From Seison nebaliae (lineage: Eukaryota): DNA of 61,577 bases. Below the pieces are notes generated by a model. That model saw only the letters and a program-made list of their open reading frames with translations. It had not been told where the DNA came from and searched no databases. Positions 43,908 to 57,128 of the stretch are shown one piece after another (the first letter of the stretch is position 1; the number at the start of each line of letters is the position of its first letter). Made by a program: the position numbers and the translations under genes. The stretch spans positions 1-61,577 of the forward strand of contig JALJEE010002960.1 in NCBI GenBank assembly GCA_023231475.1, written 5' to 3'.

Positions 43908-44129
43908 TCTTAAAAAACACTAAAATTACGATCCTATTATTTTTATTCAAATTTTGTTCAATAATTAATTTCAAATAATAAGAATTTTTCTTGCTTTTCT
44001 CAAATAACTTATTTTCACAATAATTAGGAAGATGGTGATGAAAACATAAAACCACCAAATTTCTGATCAGTATTGTTAACGTTTGTGAGACTAGTATGAA
44101 CAAAAGGACATTTAATTAAATTGAGACAT

Positions 44130-44211
44130 GCTGCGATGGCCGAGTGGTTAAGGCGTTGGACTTGAAATCCAATGGGGTCTCCCCGCGTAGGTTCAAATCC
44201 TGCTCGCAGCG
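44130..44211 (+). tRNA. tRNA-Ser (anticodon TGA), copy 1
   Basis: 82-nt cloverleaf GCTGCGA...TCGCAGCG; anticodon arm TTGGA-CTTGAAA-TCCAA; long variable arm; T-loop TTCAAAT; T-run terminator downstream. Confidence 0.96.
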
Positions 44212-44778
44212 TGCATTAAACTTTTTACTTTTTCTTATTGTCCGATACAATGGTTAGTATACAATTGAAACACTAACGTGAATTGTAAGAATTAATAGCT
44301 TATTCAAACTTTTTTCTTACATAGAAGACAAGTTCTAACAACCTGGAAACAAAATTTAGAATTTAGAAAATTAGGATATGTTTTTAAATATATTATTGTT
44401 TCTAACAACTCTAAACCTCGTAGTGTTCTTAGATTTTTAGTTTATCACTGTTTTATCGAGATATTTAGTAAAAAAAATTTTAAACTTTTAAACTTTTTAG
44501 ATTATTTTAACGAACATTTTGGAGAATTAATATCCACATCTTGGTGAATTACGTAAGTTACAAGCAGACACGAGAACAATGTCTAAAGTAATGATTAACG
44601 AACCAATTTTACTTATTCAATTTGTGATGATACTTATCCAAACAACATTTGTCCTGTAACGAAAATACATAAAATGTGAGATAGCCTGGTTGTAAGCTTT
44701 AATTAAGTTAAAGTGATATAGTTGTCTAAATTCTTATTCGTCATTTATATAAAAGGATATTATATGAACAACAGATAA

Positions 44779-44860
44779 GCTGCGATGGCCGAGTGGTTAA
44801 GGCGTTGGACTTGAAATCCAATGGGGTCTCCCCGCGTAGGTTCAAATCCTGCTCGCAGCG
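44779..44860 (+). tRNA. tRNA-Ser (anticodon TGA), copy 2
   Basis: Identical to 44130-44211. Confidence 0.96.
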
Positions 44861-50040: not shown

Positions 50041-51033
50041 TAACTTCCTTTCCTCATTCACTTCTCTTTCATGTCAATTATTCGAATAGATCCCTCCTGA
50101 AATTTATTCCATTCATTAACCTCTTCTTATATAATGTTATATATGATAGCACATCTGATAATTTTAATCAAATTTTAATTTTTCTCTTTCTCTCGTTGTT
50201 CAATTAATTCTCTTTTCTATTTGAGAGGAATTTGAAAAAAGAAAACAAATTAAAATTAATAAACAATTACTAGTTCTTCATTAATAGTTTCCCCTTTCCC
50301 ATTTACCTTCCTTGTTTGACGTATACGTCGTCATTTTACATGTACAATTTATATCTTGGTAAATCAGAAGAATAAACGCAAATTTACAACACACACGCAC
50401 ACACACACCCAAAATTACACACAAAATTGCACACGTAGAGCACACACAAAGATAAATAAAATAAAAGAAATGATTAATTATTATTATTATTCTGTGTTGT
50501 GAATGGACGATTAGAAATCGACAACTAACTAGAGAAAAAGAGAAGGAACATATAAATTTCTAGTAATTTTTTTAATAAATAAAATGTTTCTCTTACTTAT
50601 TTGGTGTTGAATGATAGAATGTGAGTGAAGGGAAACAAAATAATGGACCACGAGTTAGTTCTATTATGTTTTTTTTACTTTTTTCCTTTCGTTTAAGAAC
50701 ACATTTGAATTGATAGGCTTCTGTTAATTCTCATTAATTTTATCTATTAATTAATTAATTTTTATCAAGGAATCATATTAATCATTTTAATTTCAACAAT
50801 CCATTTAAATGATTATCTGAATAAACTGTGGGAATTTCTTTTAAGTTTTAAGATGAATAAAATAATTTTAATTGAAACGGAAAATTTAAAATTTTTTCAA
50901 ATGCTTAAAATTAGAATTTCTTATTAATTGAAAAAATTGAAAATTTTAAAAATTTTAAGAATTCTTCAAATATTATTTCTAACAATATTATGAAAAAATT
51001 TTTTCTGAAACTTATATAAAAAAGTGAGATAGA

Positions 51034-52848
51034 ATGGATGATGATGAATTAAACGGTGAATTGCATTTGGAAGTTATTCATAAGAAGGAGGAACCATTTC
51101 AATTGAGTTTTTTCTATGGAAATCGGGTGGTTGAAATAATTCATGGAATTCTTTATCTTTCACCCGTCGTCAACACTTACCAAGTGTGTGCGATGAATGT
51201 GCCTTCAACTATCGCTATTTGTGACATTTGGCATATAGTTTCGTGTCATTCAGATATCATGCTCAATTTTCAGATAATTCGAACGGAAGAATCGAATTGT
51301 TATCTCATTATCTTCTCCTTCATTAATAAAGAGAAAGCGGAATATTTTGTCGATTATTTGGAGGGGAAAACATATACAGATTTTGAACAACGTATCTGGT
51401 CATTTTATGGAATCGATAAAATCGAAGTTGGTCATGTCACTAGTGATAAACCGACGAATTGTAGTATCTGTTTGGAGTCTTTAGATTATCATCATTTCGA
51501 AGATATCGTCAGTCAATTAAAGCGAACGAGTATTTCCTCCATGTCATTATCAAACGACGAAAATAAACTTCGAATTATGTCAATTTCATCATTATCAAAC
51601 AAATCACCATCAACCACTGCCATCGTACCATCAATAACATCAGAAGTTGCCACACCAGAAATTAAAATAGTTTCCGAACAAATGAATGAAAATGAAGAGA
51701 AACAAACTAAATTTATCACTTCAACAACAATTCTCTGTAATCATACTTTCCATAGTCATTGTTTGACTAAATGGCAAGATTTTTCTTGTCCCGTTTGTCG
51801 ATATCATCAAGTTCCAGAATGGACGGATACGAATCGTTGTGTCAGTTGTGGATTAACGAGTGATTTATGGATTTGTTTAATTTGTGGACATATCGGTTGT
51901 AGTCGATATCAATACGGTCATTCAATTCAACATTTCTTCCGTACACAACATACATATGTTCTCCAAATCGGCGACTCGTTCAATCGAGTTTGGGATTATG
52001 CAGGCGATAATTATGTTCATCGATTAATTCGAAATAATGTCGATGGGAAAATTATCGAAGTTACAGACGAATCTAGAGAACAATTAACTTCGGCTAGACG
52101 TCGATGTCTTTCACAACCACCTCATCCAAATATTATGAGAGATGCCGGAATTTGTCGAACAACAACAAATTCTGAATTCTCAACAACAACTCCCATGTCT
52201 CATAAACATAATGGTCGAACAGATCAATTGATGCAATTCAACACCTCCAACATCGGAAATACAAATACGAATTCATTGAACAACATTTATGAGACGAAGA
52301 AATTAGACGAATTAGCATTAGAATATACTTTCATGTTCACTAACGAAATGGAGAAACAACGTGACTATTTTAACGACGAATTGAAAAGTTATCGTCGATT
52401 AGTGAAAGATCAATTAATATTGCACGACGACATTCTCAAAGAAAACATCAAAATTAAGAATGAGAAACAAGTGACGATTGATGATCAGAAGAATAAAATT
52501 CGTATCATCAATCAACAATTGGAAGAGAAAGATAAAAAGATAAAAAAAATTACAGATCAATTAAAAGATCTGAAATTCTTAAAAGATCAACAACAGAAAG
52601 CAACAGAAAAATTTAATAAACAAATTCAATCAGAACGAAAAAAATCAGAGGAAGAAATTCTATTCCTCAAGAATAAAATGAGAGATTTGGAGGAAACAGT
52701 TCGAGATTTGACATTTTTCGTTGAGTCACGTGACAAATTACAACAAATCGATCAAGAAGAATTGAAGGAGAGTCACGTGATTGTCGCTGAACCCAAAGTT
52801 CCACTCTCAAGTGCCTCGTTAAGAAAGAATAGAAATAAAAAACGTTAA
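51034..52848 (+). CDS. BRAP: BRCA1-associated protein (BRAP2/IMP) E3 ligase, intronless
   Basis: BRAP2 RRM-like domain, RING-H2 (CSIC...CNHTFHSHCLTKWQDFSCPVCR), ZnF-UBP (LWICLICGHIGCSRY..VWDYAGDNYVHRL), coiled coil ending VRDLTFFVE. Confidence 0.93.
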   Translation: MDDDELNGELHLEVIHKKEEPFQLSFFYGNRVVEIIHGILYLSPVVNTYQVCAMNVPSTIAICDIWHIVSCHSDIMLNFQIIRTEESNCYLIIFSFINKEKAEYFVDYLEGKTYTDFEQRIWSFYGIDKIEVGHVTSDKPTNCSICLESLDYHHFEDIVSQLKRTSISSMSLSNDENKLRIMSISSLSNKSPSTTAIVPSITSEVATPEIKIVSEQMNENEEKQTKFITSTTILCNHTFHSHCLTKWQDFSCPVCRYHQVPEWTDTNRCVSCGLTSDLWICLICGHIGCSRYQYGHSIQHFFRTQHTYVLQIGDSFNRVWDYAGDNYVHRLIRNNVDGKIIEVTDESREQLTSARRRCLSQPPHPNIMRDAGICRTTTNSEFSTTTPMSHKHNGRTDQLMQFNTSNIGNTNTNSLNNIYETKKLDELALEYTFMFTNEMEKQRDYFNDELKSYRRLVKDQLILHDDILKENIKIKNEKQVTIDDQKNKIRIINQQLEEKDKKIKKITDQLKDLKFLKDQQQKATEKFNKQIQSERKKSEEEILFLKNKMRDLEETVRDLTFFVESRDKLQQIDQEELKESHVIVAEPKVPLSSASLRKNRNKKR

Positions 52849-52864
52849 ACGTTTCTCTTGAAAT

Positions 52865-52945
52865 TGTAAATAAAGTTTATTCGTAAAAAATGAAAGTGAT
52901 GAAACAACTTTCATCAAATTTCCTCCATTTTTCAGTCATTTACAG
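52865..52945 (-). promoter_or_regulatory. Candidate type-2 SECIS element
   Basis: Minus strand: UGUAA-AUGAC-UGAAAAAUGGAGG-AAA-UU-UGAUGAAA-GUUG-UUUCAUCA-CUUUCAUUUUUUA-CGAA-...UUACA. UGAC/CGAA core, 13-bp helix II (3 G-U pairs), unpaired AAA, perfect 8-bp apical stem. Confidence 0.6.
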
Positions 52946-52975
52946 AAATTATGATGAAATATGTAAAACTAATTC

Positions 52976-53224
52976 TTAATATTCGTCATAATTCTTCTGA
53001 ACGATATTTGATTGAAAATCATCGTCGATATGATTATTATTCTTCGATTCATCAGTGACCGTGGATTTTTGATGTTTCTTCGCTTGCTTCCTCTTGTTCG
53101 GTCGAACGATCTTACATTCGTCTCCAGTGCAACATTTCTCTAATTTCGGTTCGCCTTTTCCGGAGCATGCAGCTTGAATTTTCCTCGACACATAAACGAC
53201 GGCGTTCACTATTAGTCAGACCAT
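52976..53224 (-). CDS. Candidate 82-aa selenoprotein (in-frame TGA at codon 3)
   Basis: AAAATT-ATG-GTC-TGA-CTA-ATA-GTG... open to TAA at 52976, giving MV(U)LIVNAVVYVSRKIQAACSGKGEPKLEKCCTGDECK.... GTT-CAG intron upstream (53243-53305). SECIS-like hairpin about 35 nt after the stop. Confidence 0.55.
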
Positions 53225-53516
53225 AATTTTTTTCAGAATTGACTGTATAGGCAAAAATTGAATAAACAAAAGAAAAAATACAAGAATGAGAAAAGGATAA
53301 TTAACTATTAAGAAATCTGAATAACAAGTAAATATTATTTATCATATTTACAAACATTAATTTAATTTTAATTTACAAATTCGAATTTTTTTGAATTTTA
53401 AGTTTAAGTTGGAAATTCTTTCGAAAAAAATGAAAATAAAAAAAAAATGATTTAAAATTAGAATTTAATAAATACAATTTATTTTATCGAAACAAATAAA
53501 AGAAAAAGTATATAAA

Positions 53517-53903
53517 TTACTCTTCGAATAAATCGAATCCCATATCTTCATCTGATTCATCTTCAGATTCTTCTTTCTTCTCCTCTTTCTCTTCGGCTAC
53601 CGCTGCACCGCCAGCATCTCCACCAGCAGCAGCTTGTCCTCCGCCAGTTGAAACAGGGGCAGCAGTGACACTGGTCAATAACGATTTGACATCAACACCG
53701 TCGAGCGCAGAAGCGAAAAGTGAGACCCAAAATGCTTCGGTTTTACTTCCAGCAGCAGATAGAACGGTTTGTAAACCTTCTTTCTACAAAATGAAAAAGA
53801 GTTGAAAAATTAAGAGAAGGAAACTATAAACCGTTACTGGAGCGCCACATCCGGCAAGTATTAATGATGCATAAACGCACGACAATTCTTCGTTAGATGC
53901 CAT
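53517..53903 (-). CDS. RPLP1: 60S acidic ribosomal protein P1 (conserved copy), 2 exons; absent from the ORF track
   Basis: MASNEELSCVYASLILAGCGAPVT|KEGLQTVLSAAGSKTEAFWVSLFASAL...Ala/Gly hinge...EESEDESDEDMGFDLFEE*. Intron 53784-53831. Confidence 0.92.
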
Positions 53904-54156: not shown

Positions 54157-54542
54157 TTAAACTTCCTCAAATATGTTGAACATTACATCTTCATCACTGT
54201 CATCGATATCGCTTCCTTGATCTAATACGGTTTCTTCTTTTGCATCAACTTCAGTTTTCTTTTTCTCAGTTGGTGAATTTTGTGGGATTGGATTCATTTG
54301 AACTGAAGTTATCAGCGACTTGATATCGATATGTCCCAATGCTTCGACATACGCATTGATATAGAACTGTTCAACTTCATGGCCAGATGCTGTTAAGACG
54401 GATTTTAGTCCTTCTGCCTTTTAACAAAGTAAAGAAATTTAATTTTAGAAACATATTCAAATGATTGAACTGTTACTGGTAAATCACATCCGGTGAGAAC
54501 CATTGCGGCGTAGATATAACTCAATTCCTCGTTATTCACCAT
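54157..54542 (-). CDS. Divergent tandem paralogue of ribosomal protein P1, 2 exons
   Basis: MVNNEELSYIYAAMVLTGCDLPVT|AEGLKSVLTASGHEVEQFYINAYVEAL...SDEDVMFNIFEEV*. Same intron position as the adjacent RPLP1. Confidence 0.85.
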
Positions 54543-55826: not shown

Positions 55827-56027
55827 AATTATTAATAAAAAATTTAAATTAACAAAATAAATTTATGGAGAATTCTATTTTAATTTTTAATGAAAATTTA
55901 ATTTTTTCTGAAAATTTAACAGAATTTTTTTTTTCAAAAATTGACCGAAATTGATTTGAAAATTTACAGAATTGTTTTTTAAAGATTTTACTCATAATTT
56001 TTTTGGAAGATTTACTCAAATTTTTCA

Positions 56028-57128
56028 ATGTCGAATTTAAGAGGCAAAGCAACAAAAGAACAACTGGAACTTTCATCGACGGTGAAGGAACATCATGAAA
56101 TGAGGAAGAAAAAATTGGTGGATATTCCCAAATCGGAAATATTCGATCAATGGAAATCAATAAAGGAAGAAGAGAATTTAACGGAATACTCGATGGCGAT
56201 GAATGATTTGTCGAAAAAGTATTGGAATAAGAATATAGATAATTCACAAAATCGGAATTTTATAATTATGAATTTCATCCAAAATTTTCTATTTGAAAAA
56301 AATTATTTGAAATTTATTCGTCGATTTTTTCGAAGAAATGAGATGGAAATCGATTTTGATGTAGTCGATATCGATCATTTGTTTCTCTTGGATATCGGCA
56401 GTTGTAATAATCCACTTCAGGAAATTAATCGATGGGACAATTTGCATATTCTTCCTATTGATATGGCACCTATAGATGATGTGTATAAATGTGATTTTTT
56501 GACGGTTAAATTATCGTCCGATTTCCATCATATTCGATTCTCTGATGGAAATAATCTGCGAACAATTGTTATGAATGAAGCTTTATCGTGTAAAGCAGAG
56601 ATGATGGAGAATGAAAAGAATTCACAGAAATTATCATTAAATGGAAAAAGGAGAATAATTTCTGAAAAACGATCAAAGAAACGAAGAATTGAGAAAGAAA
56701 TCGTCAGTATTCGTTCTCGTTCATTTCATGTGATTATCATGTCATTATTTTTGGATTGTTTACCGAGAAAAGAATTCCGATTAATTGCAGTTATGAAAGC
56801 ACAACGAATGTTGGTGAGTGGAGGAGTGTTGGTGGTGGTATTTCCAGATTCGAGTAGAAATCCCAATAAGAATCAGAAGGAATATAATCGATGGATTTCA
56901 GCATTTGAGACGTTATGTCTTCAACGAATCCGTATGGAAAAATCGGACAATAATATTTTCATATATTTTATGAAAATATCAAACAAATTGAGAGAATTGA
57001 GATTATTTGAATTGAGTGAAATTGATCAATTATCGTCATTTGAACCATTCTCGTCGAATGATGATGAAATGTTGAGAGATTTTGAACTACTTCAAAAATT
57101 CCATCTTCATTTAGATAATTCTATTTAA
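56028..57128 (+). CDS. SAMTOR: SAM sensor upstream of mTORC1 (SAMTOR/BMT2 family), intronless
   Basis: LSSTVKEHH..EYSMAMNDLSKKYW..LLDIGSCNNP..IDMAP..VYKCDFL..SFHVIIMSLFLDCLP. Confidence 0.85.
   Translation: MSNLRGKATKEQLELSSTVKEHHEMRKKKLVDIPKSEIFDQWKSIKEEENLTEYSMAMNDLSKKYWNKNIDNSQNRNFIIMNFIQNFLFEKNYLKFIRRFFRRNEMEIDFDVVDIDHLFLLDIGSCNNPLQEINRWDNLHILPIDMAPIDDVYKCDFLTVKLSSDFHHIRFSDGNNLRTIVMNEALSCKAEMMENEKNSQKLSLNGKRRIISEKRSKKRRIEKEIVSIRSRSFHVIIMSLFLDCLPRKEFRLIAVMKAQRMLVSGGVLVVVFPDSSRNPNKNQKEYNRWISAFETLCLQRIRMEKSDNNIFIYFMKISNKLRELRLFELSEIDQLSSFEPFSSNDDEMLRDFELLQKFHLHLDNSI

What the first reader, a model, noticed from the sequence alone, without database searches (positions are those of the whole stretch)
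52865..53305. Candidate undescribed selenoprotein: TGA at codon 3 plus a type-2 SECIS-like hairpin in its 3' UTR
Seen: between BRAP and RPLP1 on the minus strand, an ATG in strong context (A at -3, G at +4; 53224) is followed by GTC-TGA and then 79 uninterrupted codons to TAA (52976). The product would be MV(U)LIVNAVVYVSRKIQAACSGKGEPKLEKCCTGDECKIVRPNKRKQAKKH...YDEY. About 35 nt after the stop lies AUGAC / 13-bp helix / unpaired AAA / perfect 8-bp apical stem-loop / CGAA. This is the UGAN-NGAN core, AAR loop and extra apical helix that define a type-2 SECIS, about 280 nt from the UGA. A GTT-CAG intron (53243-53305) upstream indicates a transcribed gene. Known: animal UGA-to-Sec recoding needs exactly this 3' UTR element. 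I do not recognise the protein as any metazoan selenoprotein family. Speculative: MV(C/U) + short hydrophobic helix + CxGxxC + charged tail loosely recalls UPF0729/C18orf32, which begins MVC. Caveats: the AUGA-to-AAA spacing is 14 nt (11-12 is typical), helix I is weak (UGUAA/UUACA), AAUAAA overlaps the 3' core, and another frame gives a 60-aa ORF from an upstream ATG.
Basis: partly seen in the sequence, partly recalled or inferred. Interest (0 to 1): 0.92.

Follow-up and report, generated by a model that had tools for sequence, protein, structure and literature searches.

The report
Hidden selenium protein in a rotifer
A small gene of a tiny marine rotifer has a "stop" codon as its third codon and a selenium-insertion-type RNA hairpin behind it, so it likely makes a selenium-containing protein of no family I could find, which the public gene model misses.

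Summary
On the minus strand, ATG-GTC-TGA (53224) opens a 79-codon frame with no other Met. That frame scores as coding (+27 versus -24/-25). A hairpin 36 nt past the stop fits the published SECISearch strict pattern with no defect, the only such hit of 20 in the window. None like it arose in 32.5 Mb of simulated DNA. The TGA is unchanged in three DNA runs. The same runs' DNA holds a tRNA-Sec-type gene (anticodon not read directly). The public model (Seison nebaliae label) avoids the TGA with a 97-nt intron. Local splice statistics favour the 63-nt intron but do not exclude the longer one. Against: no homologue anywhere, no Rfam SECIS hit, weak helix I, a C where the core consensus has G/U, and no RNA data. 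Best reading (0.75): SECIS-directed selenocysteine at codon 3 of an 82-residue orphan protein. Its function, a membrane-surface redox relay, is a guess (about 0.25). Kinship to C18orf32 is unsupported. The scan's index held no look-alike.

The parts
52976..53224 (-). Coding sequence of the candidate 82-aa selenoprotein (83 codons with the TAA stop at 52978-52976)
   Evidence: coding score +27.2 versus -24.4 and -25.2 in the other frames, held-out true exons 7 to 28 (5th-95th percentile, n=66)
53222..53224 (-). Start codon; the only ATG in this frame between 53500 and the stop
   Evidence: 10 ATGs listed, 1 in this frame
53216..53218 (-). In-frame TGA at codon 3, likely selenocysteine
   Evidence: no difference in the covering contig of runs X1, X2, X3
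53189..53224 (-). Hydrophobic N-terminal residues 1-12 (mean hydropathy 2.4 over the first 11), followed by basic residues; too short for a standard transmembrane helix (best 19-residue window 1.41)
53114..53131 (-). Cys32-x4-Cys37 motif (with Cys31 beside it) in a weakly predicted beta-hairpin, residues 29-40
   Evidence: AlphaFold single-sequence model, mean pLDDT 53.8, low confidence
52865..52944 (-). Type-2 SECIS-like element: weak helix I (52944-52939 with 52870-52865), core UGAC 52938-52935 / CGAA 52883-52880, helix II 52934-52922 / 52896-52884, unpaired AAA 52921-52919, apical stem-loop 52916-52897
52876..52881 (-). AATAAA, the first of 13 tested poly(A)-signal hexamers after the stop (94 nt downstream); overlaps the 3' core
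53243..53305 (-). Predicted 63-nt 5' UTR intron (GTT..CAG)
   Evidence: length within the local interquartile range 46-64 nt; acceptor 1.6 bits, 44th percentile; donor 0.6 bits, 18th percentile
53209..53210 (-). Rival distal splice acceptor used by the public model P0002 (97-nt intron that removes ATG-GTC-TGA)
   Evidence: one search compared; acceptor -1.6 bits, 14th percentile
53317..53355 (-). Possible second 39-nt GTT..CAG intron that would remove or break the two upstream out-of-frame ATGs (53357, 53345); inferred only
   Evidence: donor 1.6 bits, acceptor 2.5 bits (58th percentile)

Best explanation
This is a real small protein-coding gene whose third codon is TGA, likely read as selenocysteine with the help of the SECIS-pattern hairpin predicted to lie in its 3' UTR. 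Shown: the coding frame, the TGA, the hairpin and its rarity, and a tRNA-Sec-type gene in DNA runs that hold this locus. Inferred: the 63-nt intron is spliced, translation starts at ATG 53224, SBP2 and eEFSec bind the hairpin and deliver Sec-tRNA to codon 3 (established eukaryotic pathway, not tested here), and an 82-residue protein results. When recoding fails, the product would be only Met-Val, so the amount of protein would follow selenium supply. Met removal before Val (my own knowledge of methionine aminopeptidase) would leave Sec as residue 2. Function, a guess at about 0.25: the 12 hydrophobic N-terminal residues and the basic residues behind them would hold the protein on the cytosolic face of a membrane, Sec would act as the reactive selenol, and the Cys32-x4-Cys37 hairpin would re-reduce it as a dithiol relay, with a disordered charged tail.
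For: Coding frame +27.2 versus -24.4/-25.2, with no Met after the TGA. Hairpin fits the SECISearch strict and loose patterns with 0 defects, the only one of 20 strict hits. In 32.5 Mb of simulated DNA, 4 of 471 pattern hits had a perfect helix II, 3 had dG <= -15, none had both. It is strand-specific: -17.7 kcal/mol (0 of 200 shuffles) on the gene's strand, -8.9 (12 of 200) on the other. No poly(A) hexamer of 13 tested lies between the stop and the hairpin, whereas 12 of 21 other predicted gene ends have AATAAA within 68 nt. UGA-to-SECIS distance is 276 nt, above the 51-111 nt minimum (PMC3753652 passage). TGA is not a consensus error in runs X1, X2, X3. Exactly one contig in each of 4 runs matched a eukaryotic tRNA-Sec gene at 43 of 48 bases, and its loose end reads on as a 5-bp variable arm and a 4-bp T stem (9/4 fold per PMC5330540). 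A BUSCO table lists the 15-kDa selenoprotein as Complete in its Seisonidea column. Splice scores and intron lengths favour the acceptor that keeps the TGA in the mRNA.
Against: No homologue: only the public model of this same gene among 1.84 billion representatives and in the 5.8-billion set; none in Pfam, NCBIfam or PDB. So no Cys/Sec alignment, the usual proof. No Rfam SECIS family at E <= 10, even on 126 nt. The hairpin fails the SECISearch default pattern (apical part 23 nt; limit 16), has C where the core consensus KGAW wants G/U, and has a weak helix I; the lowest-energy fold pairs the 5' half of the core with downstream bases (-22.2 versus -18.2 with the core held open). The first six codons score -5.3 as coding (short, and it includes the TGA, which the model never saw in frame). 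The distal acceptor is not excluded: 15 of 77 local introns skip an internal AG. Upstream ATGs at 53357 and 53345 would pre-empt the start if they are in the mRNA. The tRNA contig has 0.6 times the depth of this locus, its five mismatches were not located, and a co-sequenced organism is not excluded. SBP2, eEFSec, SEPSECS and PSTK were not tested.
Confidence: 0.75

Rival explanations
1. The public model is right: a 97-nt intron (53305-53209) removes ATG-GTC-TGA, translation starts at ATG 53345, and the gene makes an ordinary 90-aa protein. The hairpin is chance or has another job.
For: P0002 is this model (reproduced at 90 aa). A GT-AG intron is possible; 15 of 77 local introns skip an internal AG and 12 of 89 predicted introns exceed 85 nt. 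ATG 53345 has a context as good as 53224.
Against: The distal acceptor scores 3.2 bits below the proximal one and lacks the pyrimidine tract. It leaves unexplained both a hairpin not seen once in 32.5 Mb of simulated DNA and an in-frame ATG-NNN-TGA in the 34 skipped bases. Gene finders commonly splice round Sec codons (own knowledge; misannotation noted in PMC3753652 abstract). I saw no statement of RNA support for this model.
Confidence: 0.1
2. The UGA is a true stop of a two-codon upstream ORF, or is read through as another residue. The main frame starts at a near-cognate codon such as the GTG at codon 6, and the hairpin is some other 3' UTR element or a small-RNA precursor.
For: GTG and ATA codons follow the TGA in frame. 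No Rfam SECIS match. Sec insertion near an N-terminus can be inefficient (Euplotes SelW position 9; PMC3737529 passage).
Against: The hairpin has AUGA, unpaired AA and GA exactly where the SECIS pattern needs them. No miRNA or other Rfam family came near its gathering score. Restart nine bases after a stop is not an established efficient route (own knowledge).
Confidence: 0.08
3. The gene is a recent pseudogene or null allele: a Cys codon mutated to TGA, and the hairpin is chance.
For: One base separates TGA from a Cys codon. No orthologue shows the TGA is conserved; the runs laid come from at most two samples of this organism.
Against: It needs a very rare hairpin to fall by chance in the 125 nt between two stop codons. 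The frame is otherwise intact and coding-like.
Confidence: 0.03
4. The true product is the 56-60-aa protein from an upstream ATG with the 63-nt intron, in another frame.
For: The frame is open and uses the better acceptor.
Against: It scores -7.2 as coding against +3.6 for the TGA frame over nearly the same span, ends at 53112 and leaves the strongly coding 53110-52980 stretch unexplained.
Confidence: 0.03

Closest known systems
Eukaryotic selenoprotein genes with a type-2 SECIS (SECISearch patterns, PMC3753652; Rfam SECIS families)
   Same: In-frame UGA, non-UGA stop, 3' UTR hairpin with AUGA / AA / GA and an extra apical helix, UGA-SECIS distance above the minimum, tRNA-Sec-type gene in the same DNA runs.
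   Different: Helix II and the apical part are at the long end of the patterns, helix I is weak, the core has C-C, and no Rfam SECIS model matched. The UGA is codon 3; the earliest natural position I saw in the passages read was 9.
The 21 selenoprotein families of marine invertebrates (PMC3473315 Table 1), above all the small membrane ones SelK and SelS
   Same: SelK and SelS are small, membrane-attached, largely disordered and poorly conserved (recalled; poor SelK homology noted in PMC3753652 passage).
   Different: They carry Sec near the C-terminus after a full transmembrane helix (recalled). Here Sec is at the extreme N-terminus, with no full transmembrane helix, no thioredoxin-type motif and no Pfam match.
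C18orf32 / UPF0729 (DUF4512), a 76-aa lipid-droplet and ER protein (PMC12797721)
   Same: Similar size; hydrophobic N-terminal stretch, then a disordered C-terminal half.
   Different: No Pfam or phmmer match; only one aromatic residue where C18orf32 has a required cluster of four; much shorter helix. No paper found calls C18orf32 a selenoprotein (listing).

Membership tests
Eukaryotic SECIS-dependent selenoprotein | In-frame UGA inside a real coding frame that ends in a non-UGA stop | tested here: met
Eukaryotic SECIS-dependent selenoprotein | 3' hairpin that fits published SECIS patterns | tested here: met
   strict and loose patterns met with 0 defects in helix II; default pattern not met; loose+ not run
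Eukaryotic SECIS-dependent selenoprotein | Match to a SECIS covariance model | tested here: not met
   no Rfam SECIS family at E <= 10; the SECISearch3 Infernal and Covels models were not available
Eukaryotic SECIS-dependent selenoprotein | Core consensus UGAN/KGAW and a clear helix I | tested here: inconclusive
   G-A/A-G tandem present; C at the K position; helix I 6 bp stacked on the core with a competing fold
Eukaryotic SECIS-dependent selenoprotein | UGA and SECIS on the same mature mRNA, far enough apart | tested here: inconclusive
   276 nt apart; first AATAAA is at the hairpin's 3' core; no RNA data
Eukaryotic SECIS-dependent selenoprotein | tRNA-Sec in the genome | tested here: inconclusive
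   tRNA-Sec-type gene on one contig in each of 4 runs, 43 of 48 bases plus variable arm and 4-bp T stem; anticodon not shown; depth 0.6 of this locus
Eukaryotic SECIS-dependent selenoprotein | SBP2, eEFSec, SEPSECS, PSTK and SPS2 in the genome | not testable with these tools
   no genome held; supplements searched had no such rows (one file cut when stored)
Eukaryotic SECIS-dependent selenoprotein | Homologues with Cys or UGA aligned to the Sec | tested here: not met
   no homologue found; these searches are weak for an 82-aa, fast-evolving protein and would miss genes truncated at codon 3
Eukaryotic SECIS-dependent selenoprotein | Selenium incorporated at the UGA | not testable with these tools
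   needs 75Se labelling, mass spectrometry or a reporter
Known animal selenoprotein families (21 of PMC3473315) | Sequence or profile match to a family | tested here: not met
   0 Pfam families at E <= 10, 0 NCBIfam, one chance PDB hit at E 0.73
UPF0729 / C18orf32 | Pfam or sequence match | tested here: not met
   HMMER filters drop weak matches above about E 0.1
UPF0729 / C18orf32 | N-terminal helix of about 30 residues with a cluster of aromatic residues | tested here: not met
   12-residue hydrophobic stretch with one Tyr versus residues 4-35 with Y16, F19, Y23, Y25
UPF0729 / C18orf32 | Profile-profile similarity to invertebrate members | not testable with these tools
   no family member was available from any call

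The most novel reading that the evidence does not exclude
A selenoprotein family new to animals, with selenocysteine as the third codon (second residue after Met removal), so that the whole protein is an on/off readout of UGA recoding. It sits in a blind spot: Seblastian's filter for new selenoproteins demands three conserved residues left of the Sec, and gene finders can splice round the codon, so relatives may be hidden in many invertebrate genomes, possibly as the Sec form of a small Met-Val-Cys membrane-surface family.
Probability: 0.35. Interest if true: 0.88.

Novelty: new member of a known kind. Interest (0 to 1): 0.7.

Why it matters
Animal selenoprotein families are described as nearly fixed from sponges to humans, with few new ones (PMC3473315, passages and section 5), and a 2026 survey says it searched only known families and may have overlooked lineage-specific ones (PMC13134290, passage). 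A new family in a gene-poor rotifer lineage would be unexpected. A Sec at codon 3 would also be a natural test of how close to the start codon UGA can be recoded, a position effect left open in PMC3737529. It points to a search that standard tools cannot do: ATG-NNN-TGA starts with a downstream SECIS.

Tried and rejected
Homologue searches gave only the public model of the same gene: near lengths, 1 of 1 candidates; longer proteins, 0 of 13 candidates; phmmer over 1.84 billion representatives; viral contigs, 0 of 19 pattern matches confirmed; PDB sequences, one chance hit; Pfam and NCBIfam, none. Shorter proteins were not searched. A language-model look-alike search was not obtained, so remote kinship stays open. 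Rfam scans found no SECIS or other family near a gathering score. Sequencing runs: no RNA holder listed; run X6 laid nothing; neither says anything on expression. The AlphaFold model was too poor for a fold search (pLDDT 53.8, pTM 0.21), so none was run. No whole genome was held. The two tRNA genes in the window are ordinary tRNA-Ser, not tRNA-Sec (27 mismatches in 48 to the tRNA-Sec reference). Start-codon context did not separate the candidate ATGs. The exon-1 coding score printed was in the wrong frame and was discarded. Assembly error at the TGA: rejected. Hairpin as a BRAP-strand element: disfavoured, because three G-U pairs become mismatches and the fold halves. Literature searches listed no paper on this gene, on a Seison selenoproteome, or on a Sec form of C18orf32; the library lacks most subscription journals, and bioRxiv supplements are closed.

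Full report
Observation. The minus strand reads ATG (53224) GTC TGA (53218-53216), then 79 open codons to TAA at 52978-52976. The gene lies between an RPLP1 gene (Pfam PF00428) upstream on the same strand and a convergent BRAP gene (PF07576, PF02148). One 3,853-nt contig in each of runs X1, X2 and X3 covers 50500-53544 with no difference. These are DNA-like runs from at most two samples and may include the window's source, so they exclude a consensus error but do not show conservation.

Organism. The only database match is P0002, labelled by its source as hypothetical protein SNEBB_008828 of Seison nebaliae, 97% identical over 96% of the query, on a contig of the same length as the window. I take the organism to be this epizoic rotifer. 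P0002 has another N-terminus. It corresponds to ATG 53345 and a 97-nt intron 53305-53209 that removes ATG-GTC-TGA (90 aa reproduced). This is the main rival.

Is the frame coding? A three-periodic model trained on 14 long ORFs of the window scores the 79-codon frame +27.2, the other two frames -24.4 and -25.2, and the opposite strand -10 to -29. Held-out true exons of that length score 7 to 28 (n=66). The frame holds no Met after the TGA, and 53224 is the only in-frame ATG of 10 ATGs between 53500 and the stop. So the protein needs either UGA recoding, the distal splice, or a near-cognate start. The 56-60-aa alternative frame scores -7.2. The first six codons alone score -5.3, which is weakly against, but they include the TGA itself.

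Which acceptor? My own crude gene finder predicted 89 introns in the window, median 51 nt, interquartile range 46-64. I dropped the 12 longer than 85 nt, some clearly false, before building splice matrices from 77. The acceptor at 53243 (63-nt intron) scores 1.6 bits, 44th percentile; the one at 53209 scores -1.6, 14th percentile; 15 of 77 introns skip an internal AG. This favours keeping the TGA in the mRNA but does not settle it. Two upstream out-of-frame ATGs (53357, 53345) are a problem if transcribed. A 39-nt GTT..CAG segment (53355-53317) scores as a fair intron and would remove them; a start site downstream would too. Both are inferences.

The hairpin. I took the SECISearch patterns from the supplement of PMC3753652 (passages, and part 4 of 72) and coded them. 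The element fits the strict and loose patterns; it does not fit the default one, whose apical limit is 16 nt. Of 20 strict hits on both strands, it is the only one with no defect in helix II and is much the most stable (-17.7 kcal/mol; next -9.3). In 32.5 Mb of Markov-simulated DNA, a simplified pattern gave 471 hits, 4 with a perfect helix II, 3 with dG <= -15 and none with both; I chose these thresholds after seeing the candidate. The 60-nt element has z -4.08 on the gene's strand and -1.78 on the other. It starts 36 nt after the stop and 276 nt after the UGA. None of 13 poly(A) hexamers occurs before it; the first AATAAA is at 52881, 94 nt past the stop, while 12 of 21 other predicted gene ends have one within 68 nt. 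So the 3' UTR is predicted to be just long enough to hold the hairpin. Against: no Rfam SECIS family matched at E <= 10; the 3' core has C where the consensus has G or U; helix I is weak, and the lowest-energy fold pairs half of the core elsewhere, although the energy model has no term for the G-A kink-turn (own knowledge). I could not compute the Covels or Infernal scores of SECISearch3 and did not see its helix-length filter.

Can the organism make Sec? No genome was held. I fetched 118 metagenome loci with a recalled tRNA motif, confirmed three as tRNA-Sec (RF01852, 76-80 bits), and laid four runs on one of them at 80% likeness. Each run gave exactly one contig (9.7-14.3 kb) matching 43 of 48 bases over the 5' end, D arm and anticodon arm. 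The 30 loose letters continue as a 5-bp variable arm and a 4-bp T stem round a 7-nt loop, the 9/4 fold that PMC5330540 (passages) gives for eukaryotic tRNA-Sec. Twelve of 73 distinct fetched sequences are as close to that reference; the window's tRNA-Ser genes differ at 27 of 48. Limits: the five mismatches were not located, so the anticodon is not read; the contig's depth is about 0.6 of this locus (8.4 versus 13.8; 16.7 versus 27.1), a class seen for other long contigs, so a co-sequenced organism is unlikely but not excluded. A BUSCO table (supplement row of PMC12256650; file cut when stored) marks the 15-kDa selenoprotein Complete in the Seisonidea column, by my count of columns; it does not say Sec or Cys. 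The protein machinery was not tested.

The protein. Residues 1-12 are hydrophobic but too short to span a membrane; Cys lie at 20, 31, 32 and 37; residues 37-55 hold 8 basic and no acidic residues; the tail is acidic and polar. AlphaFold without an alignment gives only a weak hairpin at 29-40. No family, structure or homologue was found. It matches none of the 21 invertebrate selenoprotein families by profile (list in PMC3473315 section 5). It resembles C18orf32 in size and layout (PMC12797721 passages) but lacks that protein's long aromatic helix, so I do not file it there.

Mechanism. Most likely (0.75) the SECIS recruits the standard eukaryotic machinery and codon 3 is read as Sec; failure gives a dipeptide. 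My guess at function (about 0.25) is a membrane-surface redox protein in which the Cys32-x4-Cys37 pair re-reduces the N-terminal Sec. Metal binding by the four Cys, or a nuclear role through the basic cluster, are alternatives I cannot rank. Sec insertion near an N-terminus is known at position 9 but was less efficient there (PMC3737529 passages).

Novelty. The recoding system is of a known kind; the protein and the codon-3 position are not in what I could search (listings only, and the library lacks most subscription journals). Seblastian's filter requires three conserved residues left of the Sec, so a Sec at residue 3 cannot pass it as a new selenoprotein; that would explain why such a family stays unseen. 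The scan's own index had no note in this genome and no look-alike. One unchecked AI note mentions an unexplained UGA near codon 4 in an unrelated archaeal gene; I did not test it and it is no support.

Verdict. A well-formed single-genome candidate for a new animal selenoprotein. RNA reads and one orthologue would settle it. Interest 0.70.

Noticed in passing
window 53517-53903 and 54157-54542 (-): Two tandem 60S acidic ribosomal protein genes; the upstream copy is much diverged (Pfam PF00428 25.7 versus 77.1 bits).
   Followed up: no
window 44129-44212 and 44779-44860 (+): Two tRNA-Ser(UGA anticodon) genes 650 nt apart, identical over 100 nt including the downstream flank.
   Followed up: partly
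whole window: Predicted introns are short (median 51 nt) and 73 of 77 begin GTT rather than the usual GTA/GTG; based on my own crude gene finder.
   Followed up: partly
window 52848-52976: Only about 125 nt separate the convergent stop codons of BRAP and this gene. BRAP's AATAAA lies 20 nt past its stop, so the two 3' ends are predicted to overlap across the 3' side of the SECIS-like hairpin.
   Followed up: partly
runs X1-X5: Long contigs fall into two depth classes, about 1.0 and 0.6; the tRNA-Sec-type contig is in the lower one. A sex chromosome or a second organism could explain this.
   Followed up: no
window 55998-57128 (+): 376-codon ORF with no Pfam match and a weak methyltransferase hit (NF043040, E 0.0065); it recalls SAMTOR/BMT2, from memory only.
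   Followed up: no
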